A stretch of DNA of 64,000 nucleotides from Candidatus Poseidoniaceae archaeon (GCA_028353405.1 JAOMOG010000006.1:8566-72565), one strand, 5' to 3'; counted from the stretch's first letter, positions 31,450 to 44,124 are shown. The notes: generated by a model not told the origin, from the sequence alone. Numbers and translations are program-made.

Positions 31450-32451
31450 TCAGCGACGACGGTTCTGCATATTTATTCGGCGCATTCCTGCCTTTTTGGA
31501 GGATTTACCTGAAGCAGGACGGGATGAACCATCGCTACTACTTGTTCCTCCAATATTCAATACGCCGGATGAAAGTAAATTGCTTACCAAGCCGTCAGCA
31601 ACATCTTCTGAACTAGCACCAGTTGACATTTCATTTTTGACGGATTGATTATGATCTATAATCCAAGATTCTCTCTCTTTCTTAGCCATATGTAACTGGT
31701 CACGTGCTTTGTCAACATCCTTCATTAATTCAACAGTCTTTTCATGCATTTCATCTGCCTTCTTTCTGAAATCAAGATATTCTTCATGGAATCTATCGCC
31801 TTCTGCTTTGAGGAAATCTCGGTGTGCGAAAACTTCATCCAATTCTTTTGATTTTTCAGTTACTCTCCCAACTGCTTCTATCATTGCTTTATGTGCAGCG
31901 TCTGCTTCTGACTTTAGGATTTTAATTGAGCCATCCAAGTCAGACAAATCAATACTAACCATATCAAATTGGGCAACCTCTGGCTCTAACTCTGCAAGAC
32001 GGCGGTGCTTCAATTTGAGATTGGCCATCATTTCCCTTTCCTTCTTAGGACCAACACTCGATGTTTCAAAGGTAGTCTCTAAATTATCAATCTCTTGCTT
32101 TAGTTGCATAAACTCGGCGGTAGCAGAACGCTTCTCGTTCTTTTCTCCGCGTCGACCCTTCGCTTGAGAGATGAGTTGACGGATTTGGTCTTGGATTGCA
32201 TTTCTCTTTTCTTTGAACAATTTAATTTCAGCACGAATAACCTTTACTTCGGAAAGGACCAGAGCTGATTTCTCTCTGTGTTCCTTGAATTGTGCTTGGA
32301 TTGCATTGCGCTTATCAGCACTCTGCTTAGCGGAATCGCTGAATGAATTACGAGTTTCTCGCAACTTGCGAACTTTCGCTTCCATTGTTTGAAGTTCTTC
32401 GCGAAGTGCCGCATCCGGCTTCTCCTCCGCTTCCTCTTTCATTCCGCGCAT
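31450..32451 (-). CDS. Long coiled-coil protein (archaeal COG1340-like)
   Basis: About 280 aa of heptad-rich charged sequence with a Ser/Gly-rich basic tail. It has the same layout as 41929-42903. Confidence 0.6.
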   Translation of the reverse strand: MRGMKEEAEEKPDAALREELQTMEAKVRKLRETRNSFSDSAKQSADKRNAIQAQFKEHREKSALVLSEVKVIRAEIKLFKEKRNAIQDQIRQLISQAKGRRGEKNEKRSATAEFMQLKQEIDNLETTFETSSVGPKKEREMMANLKLKHRRLAELEPEVAQFDMVSIDLSDLDGSIKILKSEADAAHKAMIEAVGRVTEKSKELDEVFAHRDFLKAEGDRFHEEYLDFRKKADEMHEKTVELMKDVDKARDQLHMAKKERESWIIDHNQSVKNEMSTGASSEDVADGLVSNLLSSGVLNIGGTSSSDGSSRPASGKSSKKAGMRRINMQNRRR

Positions 32452-32514
32452 GACTCTTCCACAGCATTAACCATTTCAAGGCTATGGATGGTGCGGCAAG
32501 ACAACTTGAATAGA

Positions 32515-34092
32515 TTATTGGCCAAATAAGACATACATTTCCATGAATATTGCGCTTAATAATCCAATCGTTCCCAGTAAATTTGCAGCAATAGAACCTG
32601 AAGACCTCACCATTGACCTGAATTCAGATCTGACTCTAACATTGATCTGCCTTCCCACTAGTAGTTCACCACTTGGTTGTTCGAGGCGAACGGAAACTGT
32701 TGCTTCTCCCGTAGTAGTGGGTAATAACGACTGCCAGGCTACTGTACCATCCCGTAGCAAACCACTCATCACACCTAGAGTATCATCATCACCTTGTGCA
32801 TGACTTGGCAATGCTCGGTCAGACCACCAGTACTTTTCTCCAGGTTGCAACCTATATGTCAAGGCTACATCATTCGGACGGAAGTCAGGTGTTTGAACTC
32901 TAAATACAACAGTTCTTTCTGTCTCTCCAAGATTATGAATTATTGTAAATAGATTTGCTCTATTGGAAACTACATTTTCCAAATCAACTTCGAATACTAA
33001 GTCTTTCAGTGCAGGGTTATTACCAACTTCAATCTCATGTTCTAAACGGTCTATCATTCGGAAGAATGCTGGACATTTTCGTGACACATGTCCCATTAAT
33101 AAAAGCCATACTTCCAATGTGAAAACTGGGTGTGAAACGATTAGTTTCAAACCATTTTCATTCAAGACTTCAGATAATTCGGAAATCATTGTAGCTTTAA
33201 CTAGACCGCGGTGGTGCCTGTACAATGCCATGAGTATTTTTTCTCTCGCAAAACCGACTTCAACATTTGGATGAATGTTGGCTTCAATACTTTTTGTGAA
33301 ATCCACATATTGCGCACGCATCAATGGATCCATGTGAGTCATTAGAAGATCATTGAATACGGAATTAATTGTTGAAGGGTGGATTGCTGGGCTATATGCA
33401 TCTAGGAGACCAGTTCTTTCAACCATGCTAAATTGATGAGAACGTGTTGCTAAATGTTGACCGATTGACAATAGCATTAATGAAAATGAACCCAATAGGA
33501 TGATCATTCCAGATTCATTCTCAGAACCAATATAAAAAATAACAACCAATAATAGAGCACTGCCCATTGCAAAAAATAGACTGGTATTTGTTTTACTAGT
33601 GGACCGCTTCATTCTAGCAACAAGTCCATCATATCCTTGTAATGATTGAACTGGGCGGTGGGCATCATTTGAAAGTTGTACTTCGTCATTAAACACGCGT
33701 AGTGAGAGTCCTTCGCGGTGTCGATGAACCATAATGGACAAAATATAACCAAACAGAATTACGAATGTGATAGCAACTAATGTGATTGAAAAGGTAAACC
33801 CTATAGTCGGTTCTATATTTTCTAACCACCATTTTGGTGAACCGTTGGAAAAGGCCCACGCAATGAAATATGTGAAAATAGCAAAAGCGGGTAAAAACAA
33901 TATTATTCTAAGGCCAAAACTAATGATTTGTCTATCTATTGCAAGAAATATTGCTTCCCAATCTTTGACAGTTGCCTTTTCACCTATTGGAGAGATAGCC
34001 TTTATTTTAGAAAAGAGCCCATTTGTATCAACAACAGCCTCTTGTGGAGAGGTTTGTATCGTATTATCTTCCCCCTCCATAGCAATAGGCAA
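32515..34092 (-). CDS. Polytopic membrane protein, hypothetical
   Basis: Has at least five hydrophobic helices in the N-terminal half, a soluble domain of about 250 aa and a terminal TM helix. Confidence 0.6.
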   Translation of the reverse strand: MPIAMEGEDNTIQTSPQEAVVDTNGLFSKIKAISPIGEKATVKDWEAIFLAIDRQIISFGLRIILFLPAFAIFTYFIAWAFSNGSPKWWLENIEPTIGFTFSITLVAITFVILFGYILSIMVHRHREGLSLRVFNDEVQLSNDAHRPVQSLQGYDGLVARMKRSTSKTNTSLFFAMGSALLLVVIFYIGSENESGMIILLGSFSLMLLSIGQHLATRSHQFSMVERTGLLDAYSPAIHPSTINSVFNDLLMTHMDPLMRAQYVDFTKSIEANIHPNVEVGFAREKILMALYRHHRGLVKATMISELSEVLNENGLKLIVSHPVFTLEVWLLLMGHVSRKCPAFFRMIDRLEHEIEVGNNPALKDLVFEVDLENVVSNRANLFTIIHNLGETERTVVFRVQTPDFRPNDVALTYRLQPGEKYWWSDRALPSHAQGDDDTLGVMSGLLRDGTVAWQSLLPTTTGEATVSVRLEQPSGELLVGRQINVRVRSEFRSMVRSSGSIAANLLGTIGLLSAIFMEMYVLFGQ

Positions 34093-34130
34093 GGGTTGTT
34101 ACTCTTTATCATTGTCCGGAGTTGGATTAA

Positions 34131-34787
34131 TCAACAGCGTATTAATATTTTTTCTGCGATACTTTCAGATAGTTCTAGATAAGTGCCATCGGATGTCTTC
34201 CAGCGACCGTCTTGTTTCTTTACACGTGTTCCGATTGTCACGCCTAAAGTATTCAATGATGTCAATGCAGATTCGCTTAAAACCATCATTCTTATATCCC
34301 CCTCACTATTATCTGGAAGAGCGCTCATTGGCCTCATTCCGCTTGCTAATTGATTAATTATTGATGCTAGTTCTTCTCTTGCAGGGGGTATTGGCTTACC
34401 TGAAGGATCAATATTTGGTTGATCTAATAATAGCGTTAGTGCAACTTCTAAATCATCATCGATTGCATGCTCAAGTCTACATGCTGTTTCGTGAACATTT
34501 CCGAAAAATGGTAACTTATCCAACAGGACTTCTGCCAACCTATGCCTTCTTTTCATTTGTTGACCCATTGCAAGCCCTAACTCAGTAAGACTAGCCCCCT
34601 TGTATGGAATATAATCTACAAACCCTTTTGATGCCAATCTTTGAACCATTTCAGTAGCTGAAGCAGGTGAGACTTTCAGAGCACTTGCTAAATCACCGGT
34701 TCTAACTAGTGATTGCGGGGCATTTTCATAAAATGCATACATTGTCTCCAAGTATTCATCTTCAAACTCTTGAAAATGGCCACCCAT
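34131..34787 (-). CDS. DtxR/MntR-family metal-dependent transcriptional repressor with a FeoA/SH3-like C-terminal domain
   Basis: Has a winged-HTH block (TGDLASALKVSPASATEMVQRLASKGFV), the dimerisation/metal block RRHRLAEVLL and a C-terminal FeoA-like segment. Confidence 0.8.
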   Translation of the reverse strand: MGGHFQEFEDEYLETMYAFYENAPQSLVRTGDLASALKVSPASATEMVQRLASKGFVDYIPYKGASLTELGLAMGQQMKRRHRLAEVLLDKLPFFGNVHETACRLEHAIDDDLEVALTLLLDQPNIDPSGKPIPPAREELASIINQLASGMRPMSALPDNSEGDIRMMVLSESALTSLNTLGVTIGTRVKKQDGRWKTSDGTYLELSESIAEKILIRC

Positions 34788-34822
34788 GTCAATCCCAGTT
34801 CCCTCTCACCAATCAACCTTGC

Positions 34823-37333
34823 TTATTGTGAATCCGCTTTGAACACTACTTTGCACGCAGGACAACGTACGGAGCCAGAATAATCTGTTGGAACTCTTAA
34901 CGACTGAGAGCAATCCGGGCAAGAAACCTCTTTCTTTTCTTGTTTTTCAACTTCTTCGACTTCCTCTTCTTCTTGAGGTGGCTCGTCTCTTGAATTAACA
35001 TCAAATCTATTTGAACAGTCTGGACATCTAACTTTACCAGAATATGATGCTGGAACTCGTAATTGCCTAGCACATTCAGGACAACCAACTTGCACCTTTC
35101 TATCTGTACTAGATGCTGAAGTTTTTGACTTTTTAATAGGCTTCTTGGCCTTTGGAGTTTTATTTTTAGTTTTGGAGACAGAAGATTTCATATCACTTGA
35201 AGAGTTCTTGAGCCTCATTGCAAGAATTACTGCACCTGCAATTGCGATACCAGATATGATTCCAATAAATGGAACATCATATGATTGAGAAGAAGAAGTA
35301 GCACTGATGCCGGAATTGTATGATTGGCTTGAAGTTAATATATTCTGGTCAATACTCCATTTAGCAGTTAAAGTAACTTCAGAACCGGAAGGCCAATCAA
35401 TTGTCAAAGTAATCTCTTTTTCCTCACCTGCAAGTAAGATTCCAGTCTCACTTTGAACTAAGAAATTGCCATTGCCATCAACTAAAATTATTTGCCCAGC
35501 AATACCGTCGACTAAACCGTTATTTGAAATTTTGATAGTAATACTAGTTTCATCGCCGAATGTTGGATCTCTTGGGGAACTGAGAGGATCCATTTCAACA
35601 TAATACTCAGGTCGCTCCGATGGAACTGATTTAATTACAGAAGTAGGACCTGGTCCTATTGTCCAATTAATTGAGTTGATACGAATTACTACTTTATCGG
35701 CATCCACATGTCCGATTACATATTGTCCAGTAGTCAATCCTGGAAATACTGTAATCAATGAATCAAATGGATAAATTTCCGATCCTCCTGAATCATATCC
35801 CAATCTTAATTGAATATCTCTTTCAACACCAGTATCAAGATCAATTTGCCATGTGAACGAAATCCCATCAACTGAATCCCACTCAACATTACTAATCTGT
35901 GGTGTAAGGCTTTGCTGCTCCGACACAGGTATATTGAGAACTCCCTCCAAACCAATATCTATTGCACCATTTGAAGAAACTAGGGACCAATTTACTTGAG
36001 TTTGCCCAATAGCGATCATCTGAATTGAAACCGAGACTTCACCTGCTGCATCTAATGCCAAACTTAACGGTTCACTCAAACTAACCACGCCGTTAATTTC
36101 ACAGCGTAATTGTACCAATCCATCGCTGTCGCCATGATTTCTAACCAGCATTGAGAAAGTTGCCATATCACCTTTATGCCAAGGCCCACCTAATACGGCA
36201 GGAGTGGATGACCCAGCTGCTTCAAAGGCTGCTGCTGTCATTGATAATATTGAAGACACAGAGTTGATTGAATCATCCCAAACCCTCTGCCCATCTGTTT
36301 GGCAGGTCAGAGTTCCTGGGCGCGCAGAGGCACTAACTGAAATCGTCGTATTGACACCATTAGTAAGGTCTAAAGGTTGTGAATATTCAATTTCTCCACC
36401 ACTGAAAATACAACTTAATGTTCCGTTGAAATCTATCTCACCCGTATTTGTAATAGACAGATTCCACTGTGCTAGTCCGCCCGCAGTAACATCTGTGTTC
36501 AGGTGAACTAGTTCCATGTCAATTCTAGCCAAAGGAGGTGGTCCCACCTCAAAGGTGGTAGTATGAAATAATTCAGATTGTGATGTTGGTGGGTTTAAGA
36601 TAGAGATATTTACTGTATAGTGAGAGTTTATATCGAAATTAGTTTCAGTAAATGAAGAAGACGAGTAAAATTGTGCATTCGTTGTAGTTGCACTCCCAAA
36701 TGTAATGTTTGACGTATGTGATTCTAGAACTTCTTGACCGTCGATATCGGCACTAACATTACTTGACCACTGTAAATCTCCAAGGTTTTCTATGGATGCA
36801 CTAATGATTAGATAGTCCCCCTCCCTAAGGGTTTCATTACCAGTTGGAACACCATTGAAATTGACTGGAATTAGTTCTATCTCTTCAATTGATAATTGGG
36901 CTGGACGGAGCCGTTGAATTGTTCTGTTGAATCCTGTAACATTGTTTGTATCTTCTGTTCCAATATCACCCGTCATAGTGACCATGAGATTGGAATATCC
37001 ATATGGCATATTGGAGAATGTGTAATTGATCGGCGTGTTACCGAATGCCAATACGGTGTAATTTGTTGATTGGTTATGAAGTTCTGTTCCCTCTATTGTA
37101 GAAATCACTACATTGACTTCTATTTCGGCATCCAATCCGCTCTGCTCAACGATGGTAAATGGTACTTCTAAATAGCTCTCTTCAAATGTTTCCATTTCAC
37201 CAAGTAGAATACTACTTACATCAATTACTGCTCCGCCGCCAGATGCTGAAACCAATGGTGCTAATATGACTGCAATTAGAAGAGCACAAACTAAGTTTGT
37301 TACTATGTTTGATGATGACATACGCTCCCCCAT
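34823..37333 (-). CDS. Large surface protein with a cytoplasmic tail carrying two zinc ribbons
   Basis: Has a signal/anchor (LVCALLIAVILAPLV), a ~680-aa Ser/Thr/Asn-rich ectodomain, a TM helix (FIGIISGIAIAGAVILAM) and a Lys-rich linker. Two copies of CPxCxxxLRVPxxYSGxVRCPxCxxxF follow. Confidence 0.8.
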   Translation of the reverse strand: MGERMSSSNIVTNLVCALLIAVILAPLVSASGGGAVIDVSSILLGEMETFEESYLEVPFTIVEQSGLDAEIEVNVVISTIEGTELHNQSTNYTVLAFGNTPINYTFSNMPYGYSNLMVTMTGDIGTEDTNNVTGFNRTIQRLRPAQLSIEEIELIPVNFNGVPTGNETLREGDYLIISASIENLGDLQWSSNVSADIDGQEVLESHTSNITFGSATTTNAQFYSSSSFTETNFDINSHYTVNISILNPPTSQSELFHTTTFEVGPPPLARIDMELVHLNTDVTAGGLAQWNLSITNTGEIDFNGTLSCIFSGGEIEYSQPLDLTNGVNTTISVSASARPGTLTCQTDGQRVWDDSINSVSSILSMTAAAFEAAGSSTPAVLGGPWHKGDMATFSMLVRNHGDSDGLVQLRCEINGVVSLSEPLSLALDAAGEVSVSIQMIAIGQTQVNWSLVSSNGAIDIGLEGVLNIPVSEQQSLTPQISNVEWDSVDGISFTWQIDLDTGVERDIQLRLGYDSGGSEIYPFDSLITVFPGLTTGQYVIGHVDADKVVIRINSINWTIGPGPTSVIKSVPSERPEYYVEMDPLSSPRDPTFGDETSITIKISNNGLVDGIAGQIILVDGNGNFLVQSETGILLAGEEKEITLTIDWPSGSEVTLTAKWSIDQNILTSSQSYNSGISATSSSQSYDVPFIGIISGIAIAGAVILAMRLKNSSSDMKSSVSKTKNKTPKAKKPIKKSKTSASSTDRKVQVGCPECARQLRVPASYSGKVRCPDCSNRFDVNSRDEPPQEEEEVEEVEKQEKKEVSCPDCSQSLRVPTDYSGSVRCPACKVVFKADSQ

Positions 37334-37426
37334 ATTACCACCTATGCGTATGGGGTTCTTCACCTTCACGCCAAAACATGGGTGAGGGCTATGTTTATTC
37401 TATGTTGAAAGGTCGCCCGAGAATGT

Positions 37427-38200
37427 ATGACACCTGACGAGTTGCTAAAAATCACTCCCGATTTGTTGGCACGTGCCATTTTACATCGGCGAGAGCAATT
37501 AGCAGAGGATATCCCAGAGCAGTTAGATGCTCGTCAAGAAGAGTTAGATTTCGCAGTTCCTTTAGCCAGTTTCGCTAAAGAAAAGCGCGATGAATTTGAT
37601 AAACAAATCAATGAAATAACTGACAAATGTCTTCATTCACAAAATCAAGCAAACCTAAAATTTACCAAATTAGAAAGTGATTTTCTAGTTACCGATACAG
37701 AGAACAAAGAGGTCGGGTTCGATGAATTATTACAACAGTACAAAGAAGCCAATGAAAATCATCACCAACAAACAATCATTTTAGAGCAAATGAATGATTT
37801 AGCAATAGAACAATTTGACAAAATCTCTAGTGCAAATAGTTCTGATAGTGACATAGAATCAATTAAGTCGCAACATAAGGACATATTGGATGCTATTGCT
37901 CTATCAAAAGATTCCCACGCAGAATTATTGCCACTGAAGAATGAAAAAGAGCATTTCAATAATACTTACCTTGAAAATGAAACGATGAGAAGAAGAGCTA
38001 ATTCACGAACTGCATTGCTAAGCCAAGCCCTTGATTCCAGTGAAAGGGGAATCGAACATTGGCAACAATTAATCGATAAGGGTTTTGATAGACTGCTAGT
38101 TAATGCTAAAAGAGTTAGTGCGGGTGAATATTCTACACCAGCATTATCCAAAATGAATAAGGATAAGAATTCGCAAGTGGATCGTAAAGAAGGTGCTTGA
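37427..38200 (+). CDS. Coiled-coil protein, first gene of the TENT operon
   Basis: 257 aa of heptad-rich acidic sequence. Its stop (38198-38200) is 1 nt before the ATG of the next gene. Confidence 0.6.
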   Translation: MTPDELLKITPDLLARAILHRREQLAEDIPEQLDARQEELDFAVPLASFAKEKRDEFDKQINEITDKCLHSQNQANLKFTKLESDFLVTDTENKEVGFDELLQQYKEANENHHQQTIILEQMNDLAIEQFDKISSANSSDSDIESIKSQHKDILDAIALSKDSHAELLPLKNEKEHFNNTYLENETMRRRANSRTALLSQALDSSERGIEHWQQLIDKGFDRLLVNAKRVSAGEYSTPALSKMNKDKNSQVDRKEGA

Positions 38201-38201
38201 T

Positions 38202-40235
38202 ATGAATGAAGTATGTCCAATAACTCATTTCACAGAAGAGCAGCAAAAACGCTGGCCTAATCTGCATAATTCATTAATCGGACAATTAGAATTCCCTACT
38301 GCTGCTGAAATCCCATCAGATGCTCTAGTCAGATTGAATAACGATGTAAATGAAATGCTGCGCAAGCAACTTGAACATAGTAAAAGGGATAGAAGTCGAG
38401 ACAAGTTATTCGCATTTTTGAAAAAAATATTGGAATTTAAATTTCCAGGGAGTAAATTAGACAAATTCGGTTCATCTGTAACCGGGCTTTCACTGGCCCA
38501 AGGTGACATAGATTTGTGCTTACAAATTCCAGGAAAAGTTCCTCACAAAGTTTTCAATAAAATTGGTAAACTTCTAAGATTACATGACTTTGTTGACATT
38601 GTAGTAATACCTCACGCCAAGGTTCCTATTGTAAAATGCAGAGATGGAAAAACAGGCATACCGCTTGATATTTCAGTCAACAACACACTCGCACTACAAA
38701 ATACACAATTGCTCAAAACATATTCAATGCAAGACTCTAGAGTCTCTCAGGTAATATTGGCGATTAAGCATTGGGCAACTTGTAGAGATGTTAGTGATGC
38801 ACCTTCGGGGACATTATCCTCATATTCATGGTCCATATTGAGTATCCAATCAATGCAAATGTCTTCTCCACCATTGGTAGCAAATGTCCAAACCGGTAAA
38901 AAAAGAACTATTCAACATGTTGAAGGTGATAATTATGATGTCACAATTCATCCAAACCCAAAGAGCTTACTAAAGCAACAAAATCAGCAAAACCTCGGAG
39001 AAATAATCGCCAATTTTTTCGAAACCTTTGCCAATTGGAACTGGGATTTAGATATCTGCTCTATTCGGAATGGTACTGCCCTATCCCGTGAAGAAAAAGG
39101 TTGGCTAGAACAAGATCCAACGGCTATTGACATCATCATCAATGAGGAATCGGTGAGAGTGGGCAAGCATAGTTTAGCAATTGAAGACCCATTTGATTTG
39201 AAAAGAGATCTAAGCACTGTACTTCGTGCTGAAGGAATCATGGATATTAGAGAAGAAATACTCCGGATGTGGTTCGGCATTTGTGAAGGTAATTCATGGA
39301 AAGATTTGTGTGCACTTCGAAATCCGGACAAGCATATTTCTGATAAACAATTGGACCTTTTCCACGACCTTAGAGGCAAGGAAGAGAAAGAGATCAATAG
39401 TAAAATTACAGACTATACAATCCAACTTGAGCAAGTTGAAAACAAAATAGCAGTTTGCACCGATGAAAAAGAGAAGGCCCAAAAAATCCCAGAATTGAAA
39501 AATCTTCGTAATGAAATTCATCAAAAGATATTGATACGTACCCATCATATTGAAGAGGAACTGAGTAGAATTTATCAACGCCTAACTGGAACTGTAGATA
39601 TATTCAGAGTACCTTCAATTATCACTGAAGAAAATGATTTTGCACTATTCTTTGAATTGCAACAAATGCTTCCAAAAGCTCGTGAAGCCGATAAGTTACA
39701 TCATGAATTTATTGATCTTATCAAGAAGCACACTGAAGTGCAATCAACATTATCTTCAGGCGTAGAAGGGCAATCAGTAGCGGCGCTGAAAAACGCAATA
39801 TCAATGGCTAACCGCTCTGATAGATTCTTCAATAGCAGCAATTATATTGCTCGTTATCTAGGAGAATTAATAATTGAGAAGAGGAAAATAAATAGAGAAC
39901 TAGGGCGACTAAAGTCGTGGTTGAAGTATTGTGAGGACATTAAACACCAAAAATCTCGGAAATCTAAATCGAACAGTTCAAGGTATTCAAATCATAGTAA
40001 AATGAATAAGAAATCTTACGCAGAAGTGAAATCTAAAATGGAATCTGGAGAAGGTTTATCACTCGCAGAACTAAATATTTTACTGAATAATGGAGGTCTT
40101 TTCTCAGCGGAGAAATCAACGGACAAAAAATCACCGAAGAGTAAATATTCTCGTTCCAAGAGAAAGAATTCTAATAATGATTTATCTGCGCATAGAGGCC
40201 CTAGAGGTCGCTCAAAAAATGTCCGTAAGGAGTGA
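38202..40235 (+). CDS. Cid1/TENT-family terminal nucleotidyltransferase (non-canonical poly(A)/poly(U) polymerase-like) fused to a C-terminal coiled coil and basic tail
   Basis: The Pol-beta NTase core has FGSSVTGLSLAQGDIDLCL, with the third carboxylate in IPLDISVNN. It continues NTLALQNTQLLKTY, IKHWA and GTLSSYSW. A PAP-associated-like block follows (LGEIIANFFETFANWNW, LAIEDPFDLKRDLS). The whole is colinear with my recollection of S. pombe Cid1. Confidence 0.85.
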   Translation: MNEVCPITHFTEEQQKRWPNLHNSLIGQLEFPTAAEIPSDALVRLNNDVNEMLRKQLEHSKRDRSRDKLFAFLKKILEFKFPGSKLDKFGSSVTGLSLAQGDIDLCLQIPGKVPHKVFNKIGKLLRLHDFVDIVVIPHAKVPIVKCRDGKTGIPLDISVNNTLALQNTQLLKTYSMQDSRVSQVILAIKHWATCRDVSDAPSGTLSSYSWSILSIQSMQMSSPPLVANVQTGKKRTIQHVEGDNYDVTIHPNPKSLLKQQNQQNLGEIIANFFETFANWNWDLDICSIRNGTALSREEKGWLEQDPTAIDIIINEESVRVGKHSLAIEDPFDLKRDLSTVLRAEGIMDIREEILRMWFGICEGNSWKDLCALRNPDKHISDKQLDLFHDLRGKEEKEINSKITDYTIQLEQVENKIAVCTDEKEKAQKIPELKNLRNEIHQKILIRTHHIEEELSRIYQRLTGTVDIFRVPSIITEENDFALFFELQQMLPKAREADKLHHEFIDLIKKHTEVQSTLSSGVEGQSVAALKNAISMANRSDRFFNSSNYIARYLGELIIEKRKINRELGRLKSWLKYCEDIKHQKSRKSKSNSSRYSNHSKMNKKSYAEVKSKMESGEGLSLAELNILLNNGGLFSAEKSTDKKSPKSKYSRSKRKNSNNDLSAHRGPRGRSKNVRKE

Positions 40236-40729
40236 TGAAGTTGCAAGATGGCATCCAATGGATGTTAGGTCCGGAACCAAAAAACTTGAGCCCAATATGG
40301 ACACAAGAAGTATTGCAGCTATTTTTACGCGAAAACGGTGAAGAATATTCACAGAACTCTGTTTCTAGCCTTCCAATTCCAAAATGGGGAGGCAATTTAC
40401 TACTGCTCGAAGGAACTGATATCACTAATCCAAATTGTCTGAAAGGTTTACTATGGGCTACTCCTTTTATGGATGACATTGTTAGAGTGGCAGCATTTTC
40501 AATAACATCTGAACTCCAGAGTAAAGGATATGGTAGAATGGCATGGAATTATTTTGTCGAAAGTGCAACTAAGGCTGGTTTTAGCAAAGTTCAACTCGAA
40601 GTAAAGGCGTCCAATATAAGAGGCCAAGAATTCTATAGAAAAAGAGGTCTTGTTGTAATGAATGAACTTCAGGGATACTATTCAAGTGGACTAGGATATA
40701 TGATGCGTGGCGATTTGAAAAAATATTAA
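40235..40729 (+). CDS. GNAT-family N-acetyltransferase
   Basis: Contains the acetyl-CoA motif A (VRVAAFSITSELQSKGYGRMAW) and the motif B region (FYRKRGL). Its ATG overlaps the TENT stop (TGATG). Confidence 0.75.
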   Translation: MKLQDGIQWMLGPEPKNLSPIWTQEVLQLFLRENGEEYSQNSVSSLPIPKWGGNLLLLEGTDITNPNCLKGLLWATPFMDDIVRVAAFSITSELQSKGYGRMAWNYFVESATKAGFSKVQLEVKASNIRGQEFYRKRGLVVMNELQGYYSSGLGYMMRGDLKKY

Positions 40730-40741
40730 TAAAAGCCATAA

Positions 40742-41107
40742 ATGGAATTATTTTATCTCAAAGGTTATTCCCCCATTGCTTCTGCATTAATTGTGGAACA
40801 ACGGATTCTTGCTGAGTTACTAAATTCTAGTGGCGTGGTTAGTGCCCACTTATTGGATGAAAATGGGTTGATAATGGAGAACCTTGATTCCGGACATAGT
40901 CAAGATTATTCTTCACTCATTGCTGTTATGAGTAATTCCGAAGAAAGCCAGTCTGTAACGATTACTTCTCAAAATGCAATTCTTATTGCAAATCGGTTAG
41001 AACAAAACTATTTGTTGATCGTTCGCTTACAATCATCCTGCAATTTAGGTGCTATCAGGAAGTTATTATCAAAAGCAGTGTTAGAACTCAACGCTCTTAG
41101 CCAGTGA
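40742..41107 (+). CDS. Roadblock/LC7 (MglB-like) domain protein
   Basis: The pattern LAELLNSSGVVSAHLLDENGLIMEN...NYLLIVRLQSSCNLGAIRKLL and the 121-aa length fit the Robl/LC7 fold. Confidence 0.55.
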   Translation: MELFYLKGYSPIASALIVEQRILAELLNSSGVVSAHLLDENGLIMENLDSGHSQDYSSLIAVMSNSEESQSVTITSQNAILIANRLEQNYLLIVRLQSSCNLGAIRKLLSKAVLELNALSQ

Positions 41108-41110
41108 AAT

Positions 41111-41812
41111 CTAATCAAATAATGGGCCGAGAATAACCATCCCATTTGGACCTACGTCAATTGCCATCTTTTCCATAGCATGACGGCAATGGCGCATTTT
41201 TTCAATTTGTAGAGTTCTAATTAATTTACCATTTCTTTGATCCATTCCCAAGTTAATTACCGCATCTGCTAAAAAACCTTCATTACCTTGTAATTCGGCA
41301 TTTGTCCCCACATTCCTTTCGGTGATGATAAAGACATTGAGATTCATACTGCGCAAGAAATCGAAGAAACCGAACATCTTTTTGCGCATTACTTCATCCA
41401 CAGAAGTCAACGAATAAATTGCACCTAATGAATCTAAAACAAAAGTAGTAAACCTATCACCGTGTTGTTGTTTGAAATGTTCTATCATCCTACGAGTGAA
41501 TTTCAGGTAATCCATATTTTCATTTTCTCTGCGAAGTTCCGTAAAATCAGTAAGTTGCAAATTATTTGGAACATTCAAACCCATGCTTGTAGTTCCCCGC
41601 AATAATGAATCCACACTTTCTTCAACTGTGCAGTATAGACCAAATTCACCTGTTCTAGTGAGATGATTGGATAGCAAGGTCATACAGAAACTCGACTTCA
41701 TTGAACCAGGTGGCCCGGTCACCATTGTCACATAAGGTGCACGAACATCACTCTGAAGAACTCTTTCCATTCCCTGCATTGCGCCTAGTAACATGATATC
41801 AACAATTAACAC
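41111..41812 (-). CDS. KaiC/RecA-superfamily ATPase (COG0467-like) with a deviant Walker A
   Basis: Has the P-loop region VTGPPGSMKSSF, GEFGLYCTVEES and Walker B FVLDSL, and the single-domain KaiC-like length. A start at an internal ATG is possible. Confidence 0.7.
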   Translation of the reverse strand: MLIVDIMLLGAMQGMERVLQSDVRAPYVTMVTGPPGSMKSSFCMTLLSNHLTRTGEFGLYCTVEESVDSLLRGTTSMGLNVPNNLQLTDFTELRRENENMDYLKFTRRMIEHFKQQHGDRFTTFVLDSLGAIYSLTSVDEVMRKKMFGFFDFLRSMNLNVFIITERNVGTNAELQGNEGFLADAVINLGMDQRNGKLIRTLQIEKMRHCRHAMEKMAIDVGPNGMVILGPLFD

Positions 41813-41928
41813 TGAATGCTTCTTGTCCTTAACTATTTTCTTAAAACGACTGCTAAAATCTTGTCATATTTTTCACTATTAATTCTCATTCAGCATGGTC
41901 TTTTACAATATTGAAAGATAGGCCTCTA

Positions 41929-42903
41929 ATGAAGAGGTTAAATGGGTGGGTTATGTGGGCGAGTCGGCGAGAAGATGGGAATCTTCCCCCCGAACAGGTG
42001 AGAATAGCAATGACAGACTTCAAAGAGCAACTCGAAGATCGTAGAAAAGTAGTGGATGGAAAGGCTACCGAATACAGAACTACCCGTGACGAATGGAATG
42101 GAAAAACCAAAACTCACACCACTACTCGTAACGAGTTGAATGCTGAAGTAAGAGAGTTAATTGTCCAAGTTCGGGAACAACGAGAAATACGTGAACAGAT
42201 GAACGAAATCGTTCGCGAAAAGAAATCTGCTCGCTCTGCTGCAAGTGATGCGGTTAAAGCTGCAAAATTAGCACTTGAGAATGCCAAGGGTCCACAGCAA
42301 GCTGCTCCACCTAGAGAGGCTGGCAGAAAAGGAAAGTGGGAAAAGAGACCTCCAACCGTTCATTCATTGAAAAAGGATTTGAACAGACTAGAAAATGAGT
42401 TTGAGCAAGGGAAACATACTGGTAATAATGAGACCAAGGTAATGAAGAGAATGAAGGAAATTAATGCAGAAATCAAAAAGTTGAAGAAATTTGATGATTC
42501 CAATGGCGATTTAAGGGATGCTCGCACTGCAGTTCACGAAGCAATGGCTCAGCAAGAGATTGCCCACGAAGAAGTGCAAAAGGCTGCAACTGCTGCTCAA
42601 GAAGCTCACGAATTGATGCTTCAGTGGAATGAAGAAGTTGACCGCCAAAGAGAACTTGCTGAAACTGCACACCGAGGCCTACGAACTTCAAAGAAGGAAG
42701 CAGATAAGGCTCACCGCTTTTACATCGTATCACTACGATGTCTGCATTCGATCCAAGATATGCTAAGAGCAATGCGAGGTGCATCTGCTGGTGCTGGCCA
42801 GAAGCCAACTGCACGTGTTGAAGTTCAAGATTTAATGGGCAAATTAATGTCCGGTCAAACACTTACTACTGAGGAATTAATGCAACTTCAGAGTTTTGAT
42901 TGA
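41929..42903 (+). CDS. Long coiled-coil protein (archaeal COG1340-like), paralog-like to 31450-32451
   Basis: Charged and heptad-rich throughout (EWNGKTKTHTTTRNELNAEVRELIVQVREQREIREQMNEIVREKK). The start is uncertain (TTG 41911 or ATG 41929). Confidence 0.6.
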   Translation: MKRLNGWVMWASRREDGNLPPEQVRIAMTDFKEQLEDRRKVVDGKATEYRTTRDEWNGKTKTHTTTRNELNAEVRELIVQVREQREIREQMNEIVREKKSARSAASDAVKAAKLALENAKGPQQAAPPREAGRKGKWEKRPPTVHSLKKDLNRLENEFEQGKHTGNNETKVMKRMKEINAEIKKLKKFDDSNGDLRDARTAVHEAMAQQEIAHEEVQKAATAAQEAHELMLQWNEEVDRQRELAETAHRGLRTSKKEADKAHRFYIVSLRCLHSIQDMLRAMRGASAGAGQKPTARVEVQDLMGKLMSGQTLTTEELMQLQSFD

Positions 42904-42966
42904 TTGTTTTTGAAGCGAACACATCAAAGACCCCATTCAACACGATAATAATTACGAGGCTTTGCC

Positions 42967-44124
42967 ATGTTATCAAAGGACGATATTGCTGAACTTGTTG
43001 AGAATTACGACAGAATGAAGTTACGCATCGGTATGACTGCATCTCATTCTGCTCTAGATATCTGTGATGGAGCAATTGAAGAAGGGTTTCCTACTGTTGC
43101 ATACTGCAAAGAAGGACGTCACAAAACTTATGCAAATTACTTCAAAGCACACCGTTCATCCTCCGGAAGAGTATTTCGCGGAATGGTTGACAAAGCGATA
43201 GTTATGCCTTCATTCAATGATGTAATGGATTCTGATATGCAAGCAGAAATGCGCAAGAGAAATGTCATCTATATCCCAAATCGTTCTTTCACATCCTATT
43301 CTTCTATTGAAGATGTTGAAAATAACTTCCGTGTTCCTCTATTTGGATCTAGAAACATGTTGCGAATGGAAGAAAGAACAGAAGAGCAAGATTACTATTG
43401 GATTTTAGATAAAGCGGGATTACCTTATCCTGAAGCAATTGCAAACCCAGAGGATATTGATTGTCTAGTAATCGTAAAACTTCACCATGCACAAAAGAAA
43501 TTGGAGAGAGGATTTTTCACTTGTGCATCATTCCAAGAATATCAAGACAAATCTAAAACCCTTATCGCTGAAGGAATTATTGACCAAGAATCATTAGAAG
43601 GCGCTAGAATTGAGAGATATGTTATCGGTCCAGTATTCAATCTGAATTTCTTCTATAGCCCACTTGCTGATGAAGGAGAGCGATTAGAGTTACTCGGTGT
43701 CGATTGGCGCTTTGAGTCTTCACTAGATGGCCATGTGCGCCTTCCTGCCCCACAGCAGATGACTATGCCTGCTCACCAGCAAATTCCAGAGATGACTGTT
43801 GTTGGACACAATACTGCAACTATTAGAGAATCATTACTCGAAGTTGCATTTGAACTTGGAGAGAAATTCATTAAGGCAAGTAAAGAACACTATGATCCAG
43901 GAATCATTGGCCCGTTCTGCCTACAAACATGTATTGACAAGGATATGAATTACTACATCTATGACGTTGCACCTCGTTTAGGTGGAGGAACAAATGTTCA
44001 CGTCAGTGTTGGACATCCATATGGAAATGCTACATGGAGAAAACCAATGTCAAGTGGCCGACGTATTGCAATGGAGATTAGAATTGCTGCAGAACAAGAC
44101 AGATTGTTAGAAGTTCTAACATGA
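42967..44124 (+). CDS. purP: 5-formaminoimidazole-4-carboxamide ribonucleotide (FAICAR) synthetase PurP
   Basis: Has the N-terminal block IGMTASHSALDICDGAIEEGFPTV and ATP-grasp blocks. This is an archaea-specific purine step. Confidence 0.85.
   Translation: MLSKDDIAELVENYDRMKLRIGMTASHSALDICDGAIEEGFPTVAYCKEGRHKTYANYFKAHRSSSGRVFRGMVDKAIVMPSFNDVMDSDMQAEMRKRNVIYIPNRSFTSYSSIEDVENNFRVPLFGSRNMLRMEERTEEQDYYWILDKAGLPYPEAIANPEDIDCLVIVKLHHAQKKLERGFFTCASFQEYQDKSKTLIAEGIIDQESLEGARIERYVIGPVFNLNFFYSPLADEGERLELLGVDWRFESSLDGHVRLPAPQQMTMPAHQQIPEMTVVGHNTATIRESLLEVAFELGEKFIKASKEHYDPGIIGPFCLQTCIDKDMNYYIYDVAPRLGGGTNVHVSVGHPYGNATWRKPMSSGRRIAMEIRIAAEQDRLLEVLT

What the first reader, a model, noticed from the sequence alone, without database searches (positions are those of the whole stretch)
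37427..41107. Translationally coupled four-gene operon: coiled-coil protein, TENT, GNAT acetyltransferase, Roadblock/LC7
Seen in sequence: the coiled-coil gene stops at 38198-38200 and the TENT ATG is at 38202. A GTG at 38193 would overlap the upstream gene. The TENT stop overlaps the GNAT ATG (TGATG at 40233-40237). The Roadblock-like gene follows after a 12-nt gap. All four are on the same strand and I see no terminator-like T-run between them.
Established knowledge: Roadblock/LC7/MglB proteins act as NTPase regulators, and GNATs acetylate proteins or small molecules.
Inference: this may be a candidate RNA 3'-tailing module whose activity or localisation is regulated by acetylation and a Roadblock switch. 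I know of no described system with this composition.
Basis: inference. Interest (0 to 1): 0.8.

Follow-up and report, generated by a model that had tools for sequence, protein, structure and literature searches.

The report
Eukaryote-type RNA-tailing enzyme operon in archaea
Marine Group II archaea carry a conserved gene cluster built around an RNA 3'-tailing enzyme of the TUT4/7-Cid1 type, a family whose characterised members are eukaryotic, made together with a coiled-coil partner and an acetyltransferase and followed by a Roadblock-fold protein; this suggests RNA uridylation may exist outside eukaryotes.

Summary
The genes are real and three of the four identities are confirmed. ORF2 is a Cid1/TUT4/7-family terminal nucleotidyltransferase (TENT) with intact catalytic residues and a lineage-specific helical and basic C-terminal half. 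ORF3 is an N-terminal-acetyltransferase-type GNAT. ORF4 has the Roadblock/MglB fold (AlphaFold pLDDT 88; TM-score 0.88 to an Asgard Roadblock). ORF1 is a helical protein, probably a distant DUF7121 relative.

The order CC-TENT-GNAT-Roadblock is invariant in 99 Marine Group II loci, down to about 32% TENT identity. The whole ~10-gene block is equally invariant, so synteny alone proves nothing. Junction geometry is more informative. CC/TENT (-4 to +2 nt) and TENT/GNAT (0 to 26 nt) are tightly coupled. The 12-nt gap before Roadblock is an artefact of this window: the conserved start is GTG 40793, behind a ~63-nt spacer. That spacer carries the 10-mer TCAAAGGTTA, whose AAAGGTTA core lies 33-34 nt upstream of the start in 73 of 80 loci.

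The nearest relatives are eukaryotic TUT4-like enzymes. Most family members have the uridine-selective His; this window's clade has Arg.

An RNA-tailing function is likely. Regulation by acetylation or Roadblock is untested. I found no published description.

The parts
37394..37399 (+). TTTATT, a TATA-box-like element at -33 to -28 from the first gene's ATG. Probable operon promoter giving a leaderless or near-leaderless transcript.
   Evidence: The surrounding sequence GCCATGTTTATTCAAGGTTG is conserved at the same distance from the start in most of the divergent lineages listed. Its function as a promoter is inferred.
37427..38200 (+). Gene 1 (CC): 257-aa acidic helical or coiled-coil protein and a probable distant DUF7121 relative. 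It has an invariant N-terminal motif, LLxxxPxLLAxAILHRRE.
   Evidence: No Pfam hit for the window protein. Orthologs in L008, L015, L017 and L018 carry precomputed PF23435 hits. hhalign against the downstream DUF7121 family gives 73% probability. Alignment A7. Moderate heptad periodicity.
38202..40235 (+). Gene 2 (TENT): 677-aa Cid1/TUT4/7-family terminal nucleotidyltransferase. ATG 38202 is the conserved start.
   Evidence: PF22600 at 4e-29, PF03828 at 1e-12, PF19088 at 6e-8. PDB: TUT4 3e-45, TUT7 2e-44, URT1 8e-36, Cid1 1.5e-27. Family alignment A3.
38334..39203 (+). TENT catalytic module (aa 45-334): NTase palm plus PAP-associated domain. Catalytic residues are G90-S91, D102, D104 and D156.
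   Evidence: These residues are invariant in A3. The motifs are intact in 88 of 92 TENT ORFs.
39204..39206 (+). Codon for R335, the position equivalent to Cid1 His336 (nucleotide selectivity). It is Arg in this clade and His in most of the family.
   Evidence: HMMER alignment to TUT4. 65 loci have His and 27 have Arg. The role of this residue in Cid1 and CutA is described in PMC5689010.
39237..40232 (+). TENT C-terminal half (aa 346-677): helical region with conserved motifs (DLFxDLR, FFELQxM, RRExGRLxAW, SGxxLSLxDLxxLLxxGG, AHRGxRG), ending in a Lys/Arg/Ser-rich tail.
   Evidence: A3 and A8. Residues 561-677 have pI 10.5. Only generic coiled-coil hits in Pfam and PDB.
40235..40729 (+). Gene 3 (GNAT): 164-aa acetyltransferase of the N-terminal acetyltransferase (Ard1/Naa/RimI) type. 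Its start overlaps the TENT stop (TGATG).
   Evidence: PF00583 at 6.5e-8, above the Pfam cut-off. Family profile against PDB: Thermoplasma Ard1 1.6e-16, Naa50 6e-10, RimI 6e-9. The QxxGxG acetyl-CoA motif is largely conserved: the second Gly is invariant, the first is present in 9 of 10 orthologs, and Q is replaced by K in three.
40730..40792 (+). Conserved 63-nt GNAT-Roadblock spacer. The ATG at 40742 inside it is a window-specific ORF extension.
40758..40767 (+). TCAAAGGTTA, an invariant 10-mer at -35 to -26 from the Roadblock start. Candidate internal promoter or regulator site; function unknown.
   Evidence: AAAGGTTA lies 33-34 nt upstream of the start in 73 of 80 loci, and those sites account for 73 of the 105 occurrences in 1.09 Mb of locus sequence. 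In the window it occurs no more often than chance predicts. No conserved RNA structure.
40793..41107 (+). Gene 4 (Roadblock/LC7/MglB-fold protein): 104 aa from the conserved GTG start.
   Evidence: AlphaFold2 with a 42-sequence MSA: pLDDT 88.2, pTM 0.83, topology a-b-b-a-b-b-b-a. Foldseek: all 50 listed hits are Roadblock-superfamily structures, TM-score up to 0.88 to 9jue. Profile against PDB: 9jue at E=0.002. The Pfam hit is below the cut-off.
41111..41812 (-). KaiC-like single-domain ATPase, convergent with Roadblock. A clade-specific insertion and not part of the conserved cluster.
   Evidence: PF06745 at 4.5e-29. Present only in loci whose TENT has Arg at the selectivity position (23 of 23) and absent from all 52 His-type loci with known status.

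Best explanation
This is a conserved operon specific to Marine Group II (Poseidoniales). Its core is a catalytically competent terminal ribonucleotidyl transferase of the eukaryotic Cid1/TUT4/7 type.

Shown:
- The enzyme has the complete NTase and PAP-associated catalytic module, with invariant catalytic Asp residues.
- It carries a lineage-specific ~330-aa helical C-terminal half that ends in a basic tail.
- Its gene is start/stop-coupled to an upstream helical protein (CC) and to a downstream NAT-type acetyltransferase.
- A Roadblock-fold gene always follows, behind a conserved spacer signal.

Inferred:
- One leaderless transcript starts about 27 nt after a conserved TTTATT box and yields CC, TENT and GNAT in fixed proportions.
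- CC and the TENT C-terminal half assemble through their helices. The basic tail, and possibly CC, brings RNA 3' ends to the active site, taking the place of the zinc knuckles or adaptor proteins used by eukaryotic TENTs.
- The enzyme adds short non-templated tails. These would be uridines in most MGII, which have the TUT4/7-like DxxDxxH cluster. This window's clade has DxxDxxR, as in the C/U-adding enzyme CutA, so its specificity may have shifted.
- Such tails would plausibly mark RNAs for Sm/Lsm binding or for 3'-5' decay.
- The NAT-type GNAT most likely acetylates a protein N-terminus in or near this complex.
- Roadblock is probably expressed or regulated separately, through the TCAAAGGTTA element. 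Its link to the enzyme is the weakest part of the model.
For: Catalytic identity:
- Pfam hits are above their cut-offs.
- PDB hits: TUT4 3e-45, TUT7 2e-44, URT1 8e-36, CutA 1e-33, Cid1 1.5e-27.
- G90-S91, D102, D104 and D156 are invariant in A3, and the catalytic motifs are intact in 88 of 92 ORFs.
- The nucleotide recognition motif is DPFDxxH in 65 loci and DPFDxxR in 27. The roles of His336 in Cid1 and Arg557 in CutA come from PMC5689010.

Distribution:
- About 13 clusters at 50% identity consist of ~670-730-aa proteins that are archaeal wherever a name or a contig was checked. The next-best hits are eukaryotic wherever named.
- The archaeal sequences form one clan in a distance tree.
- The genes sit on archaeal contigs of up to 2.1 Mb, and composition matches the neighbouring genes.

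Operon structure:
- Gene order is invariant in 99 loci.
- The CC-TENT junction is -4 to +2 nt in 90 of 90 loci, and TENT-GNAT is 0 to 26 nt in 84 of 84.
- A conserved TTTATT lies at -33 to -28 of CC.
- No T-runs lie at the junctions.

Other support:
- CC, TENT and GNAT show positive partial rate covariation: CC-GNAT 0.53, CC-TENT 0.38.
- GNAT falls in the NAT clade.
- The Roadblock fold is confirmed.
- There are no defence-system hits.
Against: - There is no transcript or biochemical evidence of any kind.
- The whole ~10-gene block is as invariant as the four genes, so adjacency may be frozen synteny.
- Roadblock is separated by a spacer of about 63 nt with its own conserved signal, and it shows no rate covariation with CC, TENT or GNAT (partial r from -0.06 to 0.10).
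- The rate-covariation test is crude. Unrelated control pairs reach similar values (Surf-TM525 0.59), and TENT-GNAT alone is not significant (r=0.16, p=0.09).
- No recognised RNA-binding domain is present. The C-terminal half matches only generic coiled-coil families.
- GNAT could be the organism's general N-terminal acetyltransferase.
- No GTPase partner for Roadblock lies in the block.
- The window's own enzyme has Arg rather than the uridine-selective His, so uridylation is least certain for this particular locus.
Confidence: 0.5

Rival explanations
1. Only CC and TENT form a functional pair. GNAT is the lineage's general N-terminal acetyltransferase and Roadblock is an independently expressed gene with another role. 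The four genes are neighbours only because this region of MGII genomes is collinear.
For: The whole block, from the upstream DUF7121 gene to PurP, is invariant in 99 loci. The GNAT's best structural relative is Thermoplasma Ard1, a general NAT. Roadblock has its own conserved upstream signal, a spacer of about 63 nt, and no rate covariation with the other three. No GTPase lies nearby.
Against: The GNAT start overlaps or lies within 26 nt of the TENT stop in 84 of 84 loci, which is operon geometry. GNAT evolves as fast as TENT (33-49% identity, against 86-90% for PurP), which would be unusual for a housekeeping enzyme. CC-GNAT partial covariation is 0.53. In one sub-lineage Roadblock is start/stop-coupled to GNAT.
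Confidence: 0.3
2. The nucleotidyltransferase does not tail cellular RNA. It nucleotidylates a protein or small molecule instead, or makes a signalling nucleotide in the manner of CD-NTases or MntA-type enzymes.
For: No RNA-binding domain is recognisable. Other prokaryotic Pol-beta-fold NTases often have such roles (general knowledge). There is a very weak MntA hit at E=0.03.
Against: Similarity is specific and strong to RNA-tailing TENTs, including the PAP-associated domain and the nucleotide recognition motif. No PADLOC model matched. The locus is a fixed core region and not a variable island.
Confidence: 0.08
3. It is an anti-virus or conflict module, such as a toxin-antitoxin pair or an abortive-infection system using a GNAT and an NTase.
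For: GNAT and NTase toxins and antitoxins are known in bacteria (general knowledge; PMC11375011 was listed). The four proteins evolve quickly.
Against: No PADLOC hits for any of the four proteins. The cluster is present in the same place in all 99 loci. No viral relatives were found. The enzyme is of the Cid1 type and not the MenT or MntA type.
Confidence: 0.03
4. The TENT is a catalytically dead scaffold, like the N-terminal domain of TUT4/7.
For: The window clade's KRD sequence at the selectivity position resembles the KRN of the inactive TUT4/7 N-terminal domain.
Against: The G-S motif and all three catalytic Asp residues are invariant across the family, including this clade.
Confidence: 0.04

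Closest known systems
Cytoplasmic terminal uridylyltransferases: human TUT4/TUT7 (ZCCHC11/6), plant URT1, S. pombe Cid1, fungal CutA
   Same: The same catalytic module (NTase palm inserted in a PAP/OAS1 substrate-binding domain). About 30% identity, with E-values from 1e-45 to 1e-27. The catalytic triad and the DxxDxxH nucleotide recognition cluster are present in most family members. The window clade has Arg at that position, as CutA does.
   Different: It is archaeal and encoded in an operon. It lacks CCHC zinc knuckles, the second inactive NTase domain and the Lin28-interacting module. Instead it has a ~330-aa helical C-terminal half with a basic tail that matches no known family. Its activity and substrates are untested.
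TENT-adaptor complexes such as TRAMP (Trf4-Air-Mtr4) and GLD-2/GLD-3
   Same: The concept is the same: a Cid1-family enzyme without its own RNA-binding domain works with a non-catalytic partner. Here the partner would be the start/stop-coupled CC protein (inference).
   Different: The partner is a DUF7121-like helical protein, not a zinc-knuckle or KH protein. The interaction has not been shown.
Roadblock/LC7/MglB proteins (MglB GAP of MglA; LAMTOR; Asgard Roadblocks)
   Same: The same fold, with TM-scores of 0.67 to 0.88 across the 50 listed hits. The C-terminal helix is as in MglB.
   Different: No small GTPase lies in the conserved block. The sequence is below the Pfam cut-off. The family was found only in MGII, always after the GNAT gene.
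Archaeal N-terminal acetyltransferase Ard1 (Thermoplasma 4pv6, Sulfolobus SsArd1), Naa50, RimI
   Same: GNAT fold with an acetyl-CoA-binding motif. The family profile hits these at 1.6e-16 down to 3e-8.
   Different: The N-terminal ~65 aa are family-specific. The protein evolves fast and is operon-linked to a TENT. Its substrate is unknown.
Prokaryotic RNA tailing by the archaeal exosome, or by bacterial PAP I and PNPase
   Same: The proposed outcome is the same: non-templated 3' tails on prokaryotic RNA.
   Different: The enzymes are unrelated. Those systems make A-rich tails, and none is of the Cid1/TUTase type (general knowledge).

Membership tests
Cid1/TENT non-canonical nucleotidyltransferases | NTase core motifs: hG[GS], [DE]h[DE]h, and a third carboxylate h[DE]h | tested here: met
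   F89-G90-S91, D102-I-D104 and D156 are invariant in 13 diverse family members. The motifs are present in 88 of 92 ORFs.
Cid1/TENT non-canonical nucleotidyltransferases | PAP/OAS1 substrate-binding (PAP-associated) domain flanking the palm | tested here: met
   PF03828 at 48.2 bits against a cut-off of 22.6; PF22600 at 101.8 bits against 27.
Uridine-specific TUTase subgroup (Cid1, TUT4/7, URT1) | His at the Cid1 H336 position within a DxxD/ExxH cluster | tested here: not met
   The window has DPFDLKR (R335). His is present in 65 of 92 family loci, but not in this clade. For the family as a whole the feature is met.
Cid1/TENT non-canonical nucleotidyltransferases | Template-independent NMP addition to RNA 3' ends | not testable with these tools
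   Needs an enzyme assay or 3'-end sequencing.
GNAT / N-terminal acetyltransferases | GNAT domain above the curated threshold, with an acetyl-CoA motif (Q/RxxGxG/A) | tested here: met
   PF00583 at 33.3 bits against a cut-off of 20.7. The motif is Q94-S-K-G97-Y-G99 in the window; the second Gly is invariant, the first is present in 9 of 10 orthologs, and Q is replaced by K in three. The profile hits Ard1, Naa50 and RimI.
GNAT / N-terminal acetyltransferases | N-alpha-acetylation of protein substrates | not testable with these tools
   The RimI equivalog model scores below its cut-off (39.7 against 86.4). The substrate is unknown.
Roadblock/LC7/MglB | Fold with the order alpha-beta-beta-alpha-beta-beta-beta(-alpha) | tested here: met
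   AlphaFold2 model with pLDDT 88.2. All 50 listed Foldseek hits are Roadblock-superfamily structures, at probability 1.00 and E-values of 1e-6 to 5e-5.
Roadblock/LC7/MglB | Sequence match to Pfam Robl_LC7 above the gathering score | tested here: not met
   16 bits against a cut-off of 23. The best ortholog reaches E=5e-4. The PDB profile hit to 9jue has E=0.002.
Roadblock/LC7/MglB | A partner small GTPase (MglA- or Rag-like) encoded nearby | tested here: not met
   No GTPase lies in the conserved block in any of the 99 loci. The rest of the genome was not searched.
DUF7121 (PF23435) archaeal coiled-coil proteins | Pfam match above the gathering score | tested here: inconclusive
   The window CC protein has no hit. 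Precomputed hits exist for orthologs in four lineages, but my own scan found only 1 of 10, at 2e-4. hhalign against the downstream DUF7121 family gives 73% probability.
Translationally coupled operon | Same strand, with stop/start overlap or a gap of a few nucleotides, conserved in relatives | tested here: met
   This holds for CC-TENT (-4 to +2 nt, n=90) and TENT-GNAT (0 to 26 nt, n=84). It does not hold for GNAT-Roadblock (median 63 nt).
Translationally coupled operon | Co-transcription on one mRNA | not testable with these tools
   No transcript data are available. The only indirect evidence is the conserved TATA-like box upstream of CC.

The most novel reading that the evidence does not exclude
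Marine Group II archaea run a genuine RNA 3'-uridylation pathway. A TUT4/7-like enzyme with its own coiled-coil adaptor would tail cellular RNAs, possibly tuned by a dedicated N-terminal acetyltransferase and a Roadblock protein. Uridylation-dependent RNA control, so far regarded as a eukaryotic feature, would then operate in one of the most abundant archaeal groups in the surface ocean. It would have been acquired once, probably from a eukaryote, and later diversified: the selectivity residue switched from His to Arg in the same clade that gained a KaiC-like ATPase next to Roadblock.
Probability: 0.35. Interest if true: 0.85.

Novelty: new variant of a known kind. Interest (0 to 1): 0.62.

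Why it matters
All characterised Cid1-family TENTs and RNA uridylation are eukaryotic. Known prokaryotic RNA tailing uses unrelated enzymes: PAP I, PNPase and the archaeal exosome.

A catalytically intact TUT4/7-like enzyme, fixed in a conserved operon across many Poseidoniales lineages, would be a new kind of post-transcriptional control in archaea and a clear case of ancient gene transfer between domains.

The prediction can be tested directly, by a recombinant enzyme assay and by searching existing ocean metatranscriptomes for non-templated tails.

The natural His and Arg variants are a ready-made experiment on nucleotide selectivity.

The work also gives a first functional context for two uncharacterised archaeal families: the DUF7121-like coiled-coil proteins and an MGII-specific Roadblock family.

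Tried and rejected
- **Genome-collection scan with a single sequence.** I replaced it with contig look-ups and a metagenome scan using the family alignment.
- **Synteny as a test of functional linkage.** Rejected as non-discriminating, because the entire block is invariant in 99 loci and no breakpoint was found.
- **Roadblock structure from a shallow MSA.** pLDDT 55 and non-significant Foldseek hits. Repeating with 42 diverse sequences resolved the fold.
- **Homology of the TENT C-terminal half to DUF7121.** The C-terminal tail motifs look alike by eye, but hhalign gives 3-13% probability and Pfam and PDB profiles hit only generic coiled coils. Not supported.
- **Defence-system reading.** No PADLOC hit for any of the four proteins.
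- **Viral vector.** No relatives in IMG/VR.
- **RNA-structure reading of the spacer motif.** RNAalifold predicts no base pairs.
- **Spacer motif as a general promoter word of this genome.** Only 2 matches in 64 kb, as expected by chance.
- **Spacer motif as coding sequence or as a Shine-Dalgarno site.** It sits in different reading frames (33 or 34 nt from the start), is preceded by an in-frame stop in L001, L002 and L005, and is too far from the start codon.
- **Rate covariation.** It gives a weak signal for CC, TENT and GNAT, but unrelated control pairs score as high, so I treat it as suggestive only.
- **Sigma-70 promoter and hairpin terminator scan.** Not relevant to archaea and uninformative.
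- **Literature.** No paper links Poseidoniales or MGII to Cid1, TUTase or nucleotidyltransferase, or describes DUF7121.
- **MGIIb (Thalassarchaeaceae) coverage.** Could not be verified from source names.

Full report
**Where the window comes from.** It carries an archaeal RNase P RNA. Named homologs of the genes studied here come from Candidatus Poseidoniales/Poseidoniaceae, that is, Marine Group II (MGII). A Tara Oceans scaffold (L020) encodes a TENT 100% identical to the window's.

**Checking the observation.**
- 37427-38200, 257 aa.
- 38202-40235, 677 aa from the ATG. A GTG at 38193 would overlap the upstream gene.
- 40235-40729, with TGATG at 40233-40237.
- An ORF from ATG 40742 to 41107.

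No T run of 5 or more lies at any junction. The three T5-T6 runs on the + strand are inside ORFs, at a density below the window average.

One detail fails. In the closest relatives the ATG at 40742 is followed directly by TAA, or is absent. The protein alignment, the DNA alignment and most database gene calls all point to GTG 40793 as the conserved start, giving 104 aa. The 12-nt gap is therefore a window-specific ORF extension, and the real spacer is 63 nt.

**What the four proteins are.**

*Gene 2 (TENT).* It is a Cid1-family terminal nucleotidyltransferase. PF22600 (4e-29), PF03828 PAP_assoc (1e-12) and PF19088 TUTase (6e-8) all score above their cut-offs. The catalytic half matches solved structures in this order:

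| Structure | E-value |
|---|---|
| TUT4 | 3e-45 |
| TUT7 | 2e-44 |
| URT1 | 8e-36 |
| CutA | 1e-33 |
| Cid1 | 1.5e-27 |
| GLD-2 | 1e-26 |
| TUT1 | about 1e-20 |
| mitochondrial PAP | 4e-17 to 4e-11 |
| Trf4 | 3e-8 |

G90-S91, D102, D104 and D156 are invariant across members that are only 32-39% identical, and the catalytic motifs are intact in 88 of 92 ORFs.

At the position of Cid1 His336, the main determinant of UTP selectivity (PMC5689010), 65 loci have the TUT4/7-like DPFDxxH. The other 27, including the window, have DPFDxxR. Arg at this position is what the C/U-adding enzyme CutA has.

Residues 346-677 form a helical region with family-specific motifs and a Lys/Arg/Ser-rich tail (pI 10.5 for residues 561-677). 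Profiles of this region hit only generic coiled-coil families.

*Gene 3 (GNAT).* It scores above the Pfam cut-off. A profile of ten orthologs places it among N-terminal acetyltransferases: Thermoplasma Ard1 1.6e-16, Naa50 6e-10, RimI 6e-9, SsArd1 3e-8. The acetyl-CoA motif is largely conserved and the N-terminal third is family-specific.

*Gene 4 (Roadblock).* By sequence it is only marginally Roadblock-like: Pfam 16 bits against a cut-off of 23, and E=0.002 to 9jue from the PDB profile. With a 42-sequence alignment, AlphaFold2 gives pLDDT 88.2 and pTM 0.83 with the topology a-b-b-a-b-b-b-a. All 50 listed Foldseek hits are Roadblock-superfamily structures, with TM-score up to 0.88 to Asgard Roadblock3.

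*Gene 1 (CC).* It has no Pfam hit in the window. It shows moderate heptad periodicity and an invariant N-terminal motif, LLxxxPxLLAxAILHRRE. The evidence that it is a diverged DUF7121 protein is mixed: precomputed hits in four lineages, 1 of 10 in my own scan, and 73% hhalign probability.

**Distribution and origin.**
- An exhaustive search with the catalytic half found 6,493 relatives. The best of these are about 13 clusters at 50% identity, made of ~670-730-aa proteins that are archaeal wherever a source name or an encoding contig was checked.
- Every next-best hit that carries a name is eukaryotic: coral TUT4-like, a fish CCHC protein, a mollusc, amoebozoans and fungi.
- In a distance tree the 17 archaeal-type sequences form one clan with nothing else nested inside. 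Their internal divergence (0.55) approaches that among the other best hits, presumed eukaryotic (0.63).
- Composition matches the neighbouring genes, and the genes sit on archaeal contigs of up to 2.1 Mb.
- I infer one old acquisition. The graded similarity to TUT4/7, URT1 and Cid1, rather than to Trf4 or mitochondrial PAP, suggests a eukaryotic donor, but the tree is unrooted, so direction is not shown.
- No viral relatives were found.
- Coverage of MGIIb could not be verified from the source names.

**Is it an operon?** Contig look-ups starting from divergent TENTs and, independently, from divergent Roadblock proteins, plus 80 metagenome loci, give 99 loci. In all of them the order is:

DUF7121(-) TM-protein(-) DtxR(-) surface-protein(-) | CC TENT GNAT Roadblock [KaiC(-)] DUF7121 PurP

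The only differences are contig ends and a few missed short ORFs.

Junction geometry does discriminate:

| Junction | n | Range (nt) | Median (nt) |
|---|---|---|---|
| CC-TENT | 90 | -4 to +2 (50 loci at -4) | -4 |
| TENT-GNAT | 84 | 0 to 26 | 6 |
| GNAT-Roadblock | 80 | 25 to 72, plus one outlier at 428 | 63 |
| Roadblock-next gene (no KaiC) | 49 | 49 to 282 | 138 |

Upstream of CC, the sequence GCCATGTTTATTCAAGGTTG is conserved, with TTTATT at -33 to -28. That is where a TATA box would sit for a leaderless transcript.

A crude rate-covariation analysis on 28 dereplicated loci groups CC, TENT and GNAT with the two DUF7121 paralogs (CC-GNAT 0.53, CC-TENT 0.38, TENT-upstream DUF7121 0.60). Roadblock shows none with the other three (-0.06 to 0.10). 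Because unrelated control pairs score as high, this is only suggestive.

**An unexpected element.** The GNAT-Roadblock spacer contains the 10-mer TCAAAGGTTA (window 40758-40767).
- Its core AAAGGTTA lies 33-34 nt upstream of the Roadblock start in 73 of 80 loci. These include lineages in which the proteins are only about 30% identical.
- Those 73 sites are most of the 105 occurrences in 1.09 Mb of locus sequence.
- It is not a common word in this genome.
- It is not part of a conserved RNA structure.
- It is not consistently in one reading frame.
- The one sub-lineage without it has GNAT and Roadblock start/stop-coupled instead.

I read it as an internal promoter or a regulator site. A related CAAGGTT sits just downstream of the CC TATA box. 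Its function is not established.

**Most likely mechanism.**

*Shown:* an intact TUT4/7-type catalytic module with a novel helical and basic C-terminal half, start/stop-coupled with a helical protein and a NAT-type GNAT, and followed by a Roadblock-fold gene.

*Inferred:*
- CC and TENT assemble through their helices.
- The basic tail, and possibly CC, recruits RNA 3' ends.
- Short non-templated tails are added. These would be U in most MGII, with possibly altered specificity in this window's Arg clade.
- The tails mark RNAs for binding or decay.
- GNAT acetylates an N-terminus in or near the complex.
- Roadblock is the most loosely attached component.

I put about 0.7 on the enzyme being an active RNA 3' nucleotidyltransferase. 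I put about 0.5 on the model as a whole, and well below that on all four proteins acting as one regulated module.

**Rivals.**
- Frozen synteny with a housekeeping NAT and an independent Roadblock gene (0.3).
- A non-RNA substrate (0.08).
- A dead scaffold (0.04): unlikely because the catalytic residues are invariant.
- A defence module (0.03): disfavoured by the absence of PADLOC hits and by the fixed core location.

**Novelty.** No paper in the searchable library connects Poseidoniales or MGII with Cid1/TUTase enzymes, or describes DUF7121. Databases annotate the protein only as a nucleotidyltransferase domain-containing protein or as DNA polymerase sigma. The enzyme is a member of a known family, found in an unexpected domain of life, with a new architecture and a new gene context. 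I class it as a new variant of a known kind.

Noticed in passing
window 40758-40767 (spacer 40730-40792): The 10-mer TCAAAGGTTA is invariant in a 12-lineage alignment; its AAAGGTTA core lies 33-34 nt upstream of the Roadblock start in 73 of 80 loci, with variable flanks. It forms no conserved RNA structure and is not a common word in the genome. It may be an internal promoter or a regulator site. A related CAAGGTT lies just downstream of the TATA-like box of the first gene in most lineages.
   Followed up: partly
window 39204-39206 and 41111-41812(-); loci L001-L099: Arg at the nucleotide-selectivity position of the TENT goes with a KaiC-like ATPase gene inserted convergently after Roadblock (23 of 23 loci). 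His goes with its absence (52 of 52). This includes the deep lineage L015/L016. It may reflect one clade or a coupled functional change.
   Followed up: partly
window 31450-32451(-), 37427-38200(+), 41911-42903(+): Three DUF7121-related coiled-coil genes lie in one 12-kb neighbourhood. Their C-terminal tails and the TENT tail share a loose motif (EVxxKxxSGxxLSLxELxxLL, then GG, then a basic run) that profile comparison does not support statistically. TENT shows its strongest partial rate covariation with the upstream paralog (0.60).
   Followed up: partly
window about 31450-44124; L001-L099: A block of about 10 genes, from the upstream DUF7121 gene to PurP, has invariant order in all 99 MGII loci examined. 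Across that set the TENT is only about 32-40% identical while PurP is 86-90%. The collinearity is striking and the rate differences between neighbouring genes are very large.
   Followed up: yes
upstream of the DUF7121 gene at window 41911-42903; see loci: The element TTAAATGGGGG...GGTCGC is conserved upstream of the downstream DUF7121 gene across divergent lineages. In the window it falls inside the 5' end of the longest ORF, so the true start is probably a later ATG, around 41953.
   Followed up: no
window 34823-37369(-): An 848-aa predicted surface protein (a CARDB-like domain, a transmembrane segment, then two C-terminal zinc ribbons) is transcribed divergently from the first gene. Only 57 nt separate the two start codons, so two promoters must share this short interval.
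   Followed up: no
window 40742-40792: A single-base difference (GGA here, TAA in the closest relatives) opens the reading frame upstream of the Roadblock start. It produces the 121-aa ORF and the apparent 12-nt gap.
   Followed up: yes
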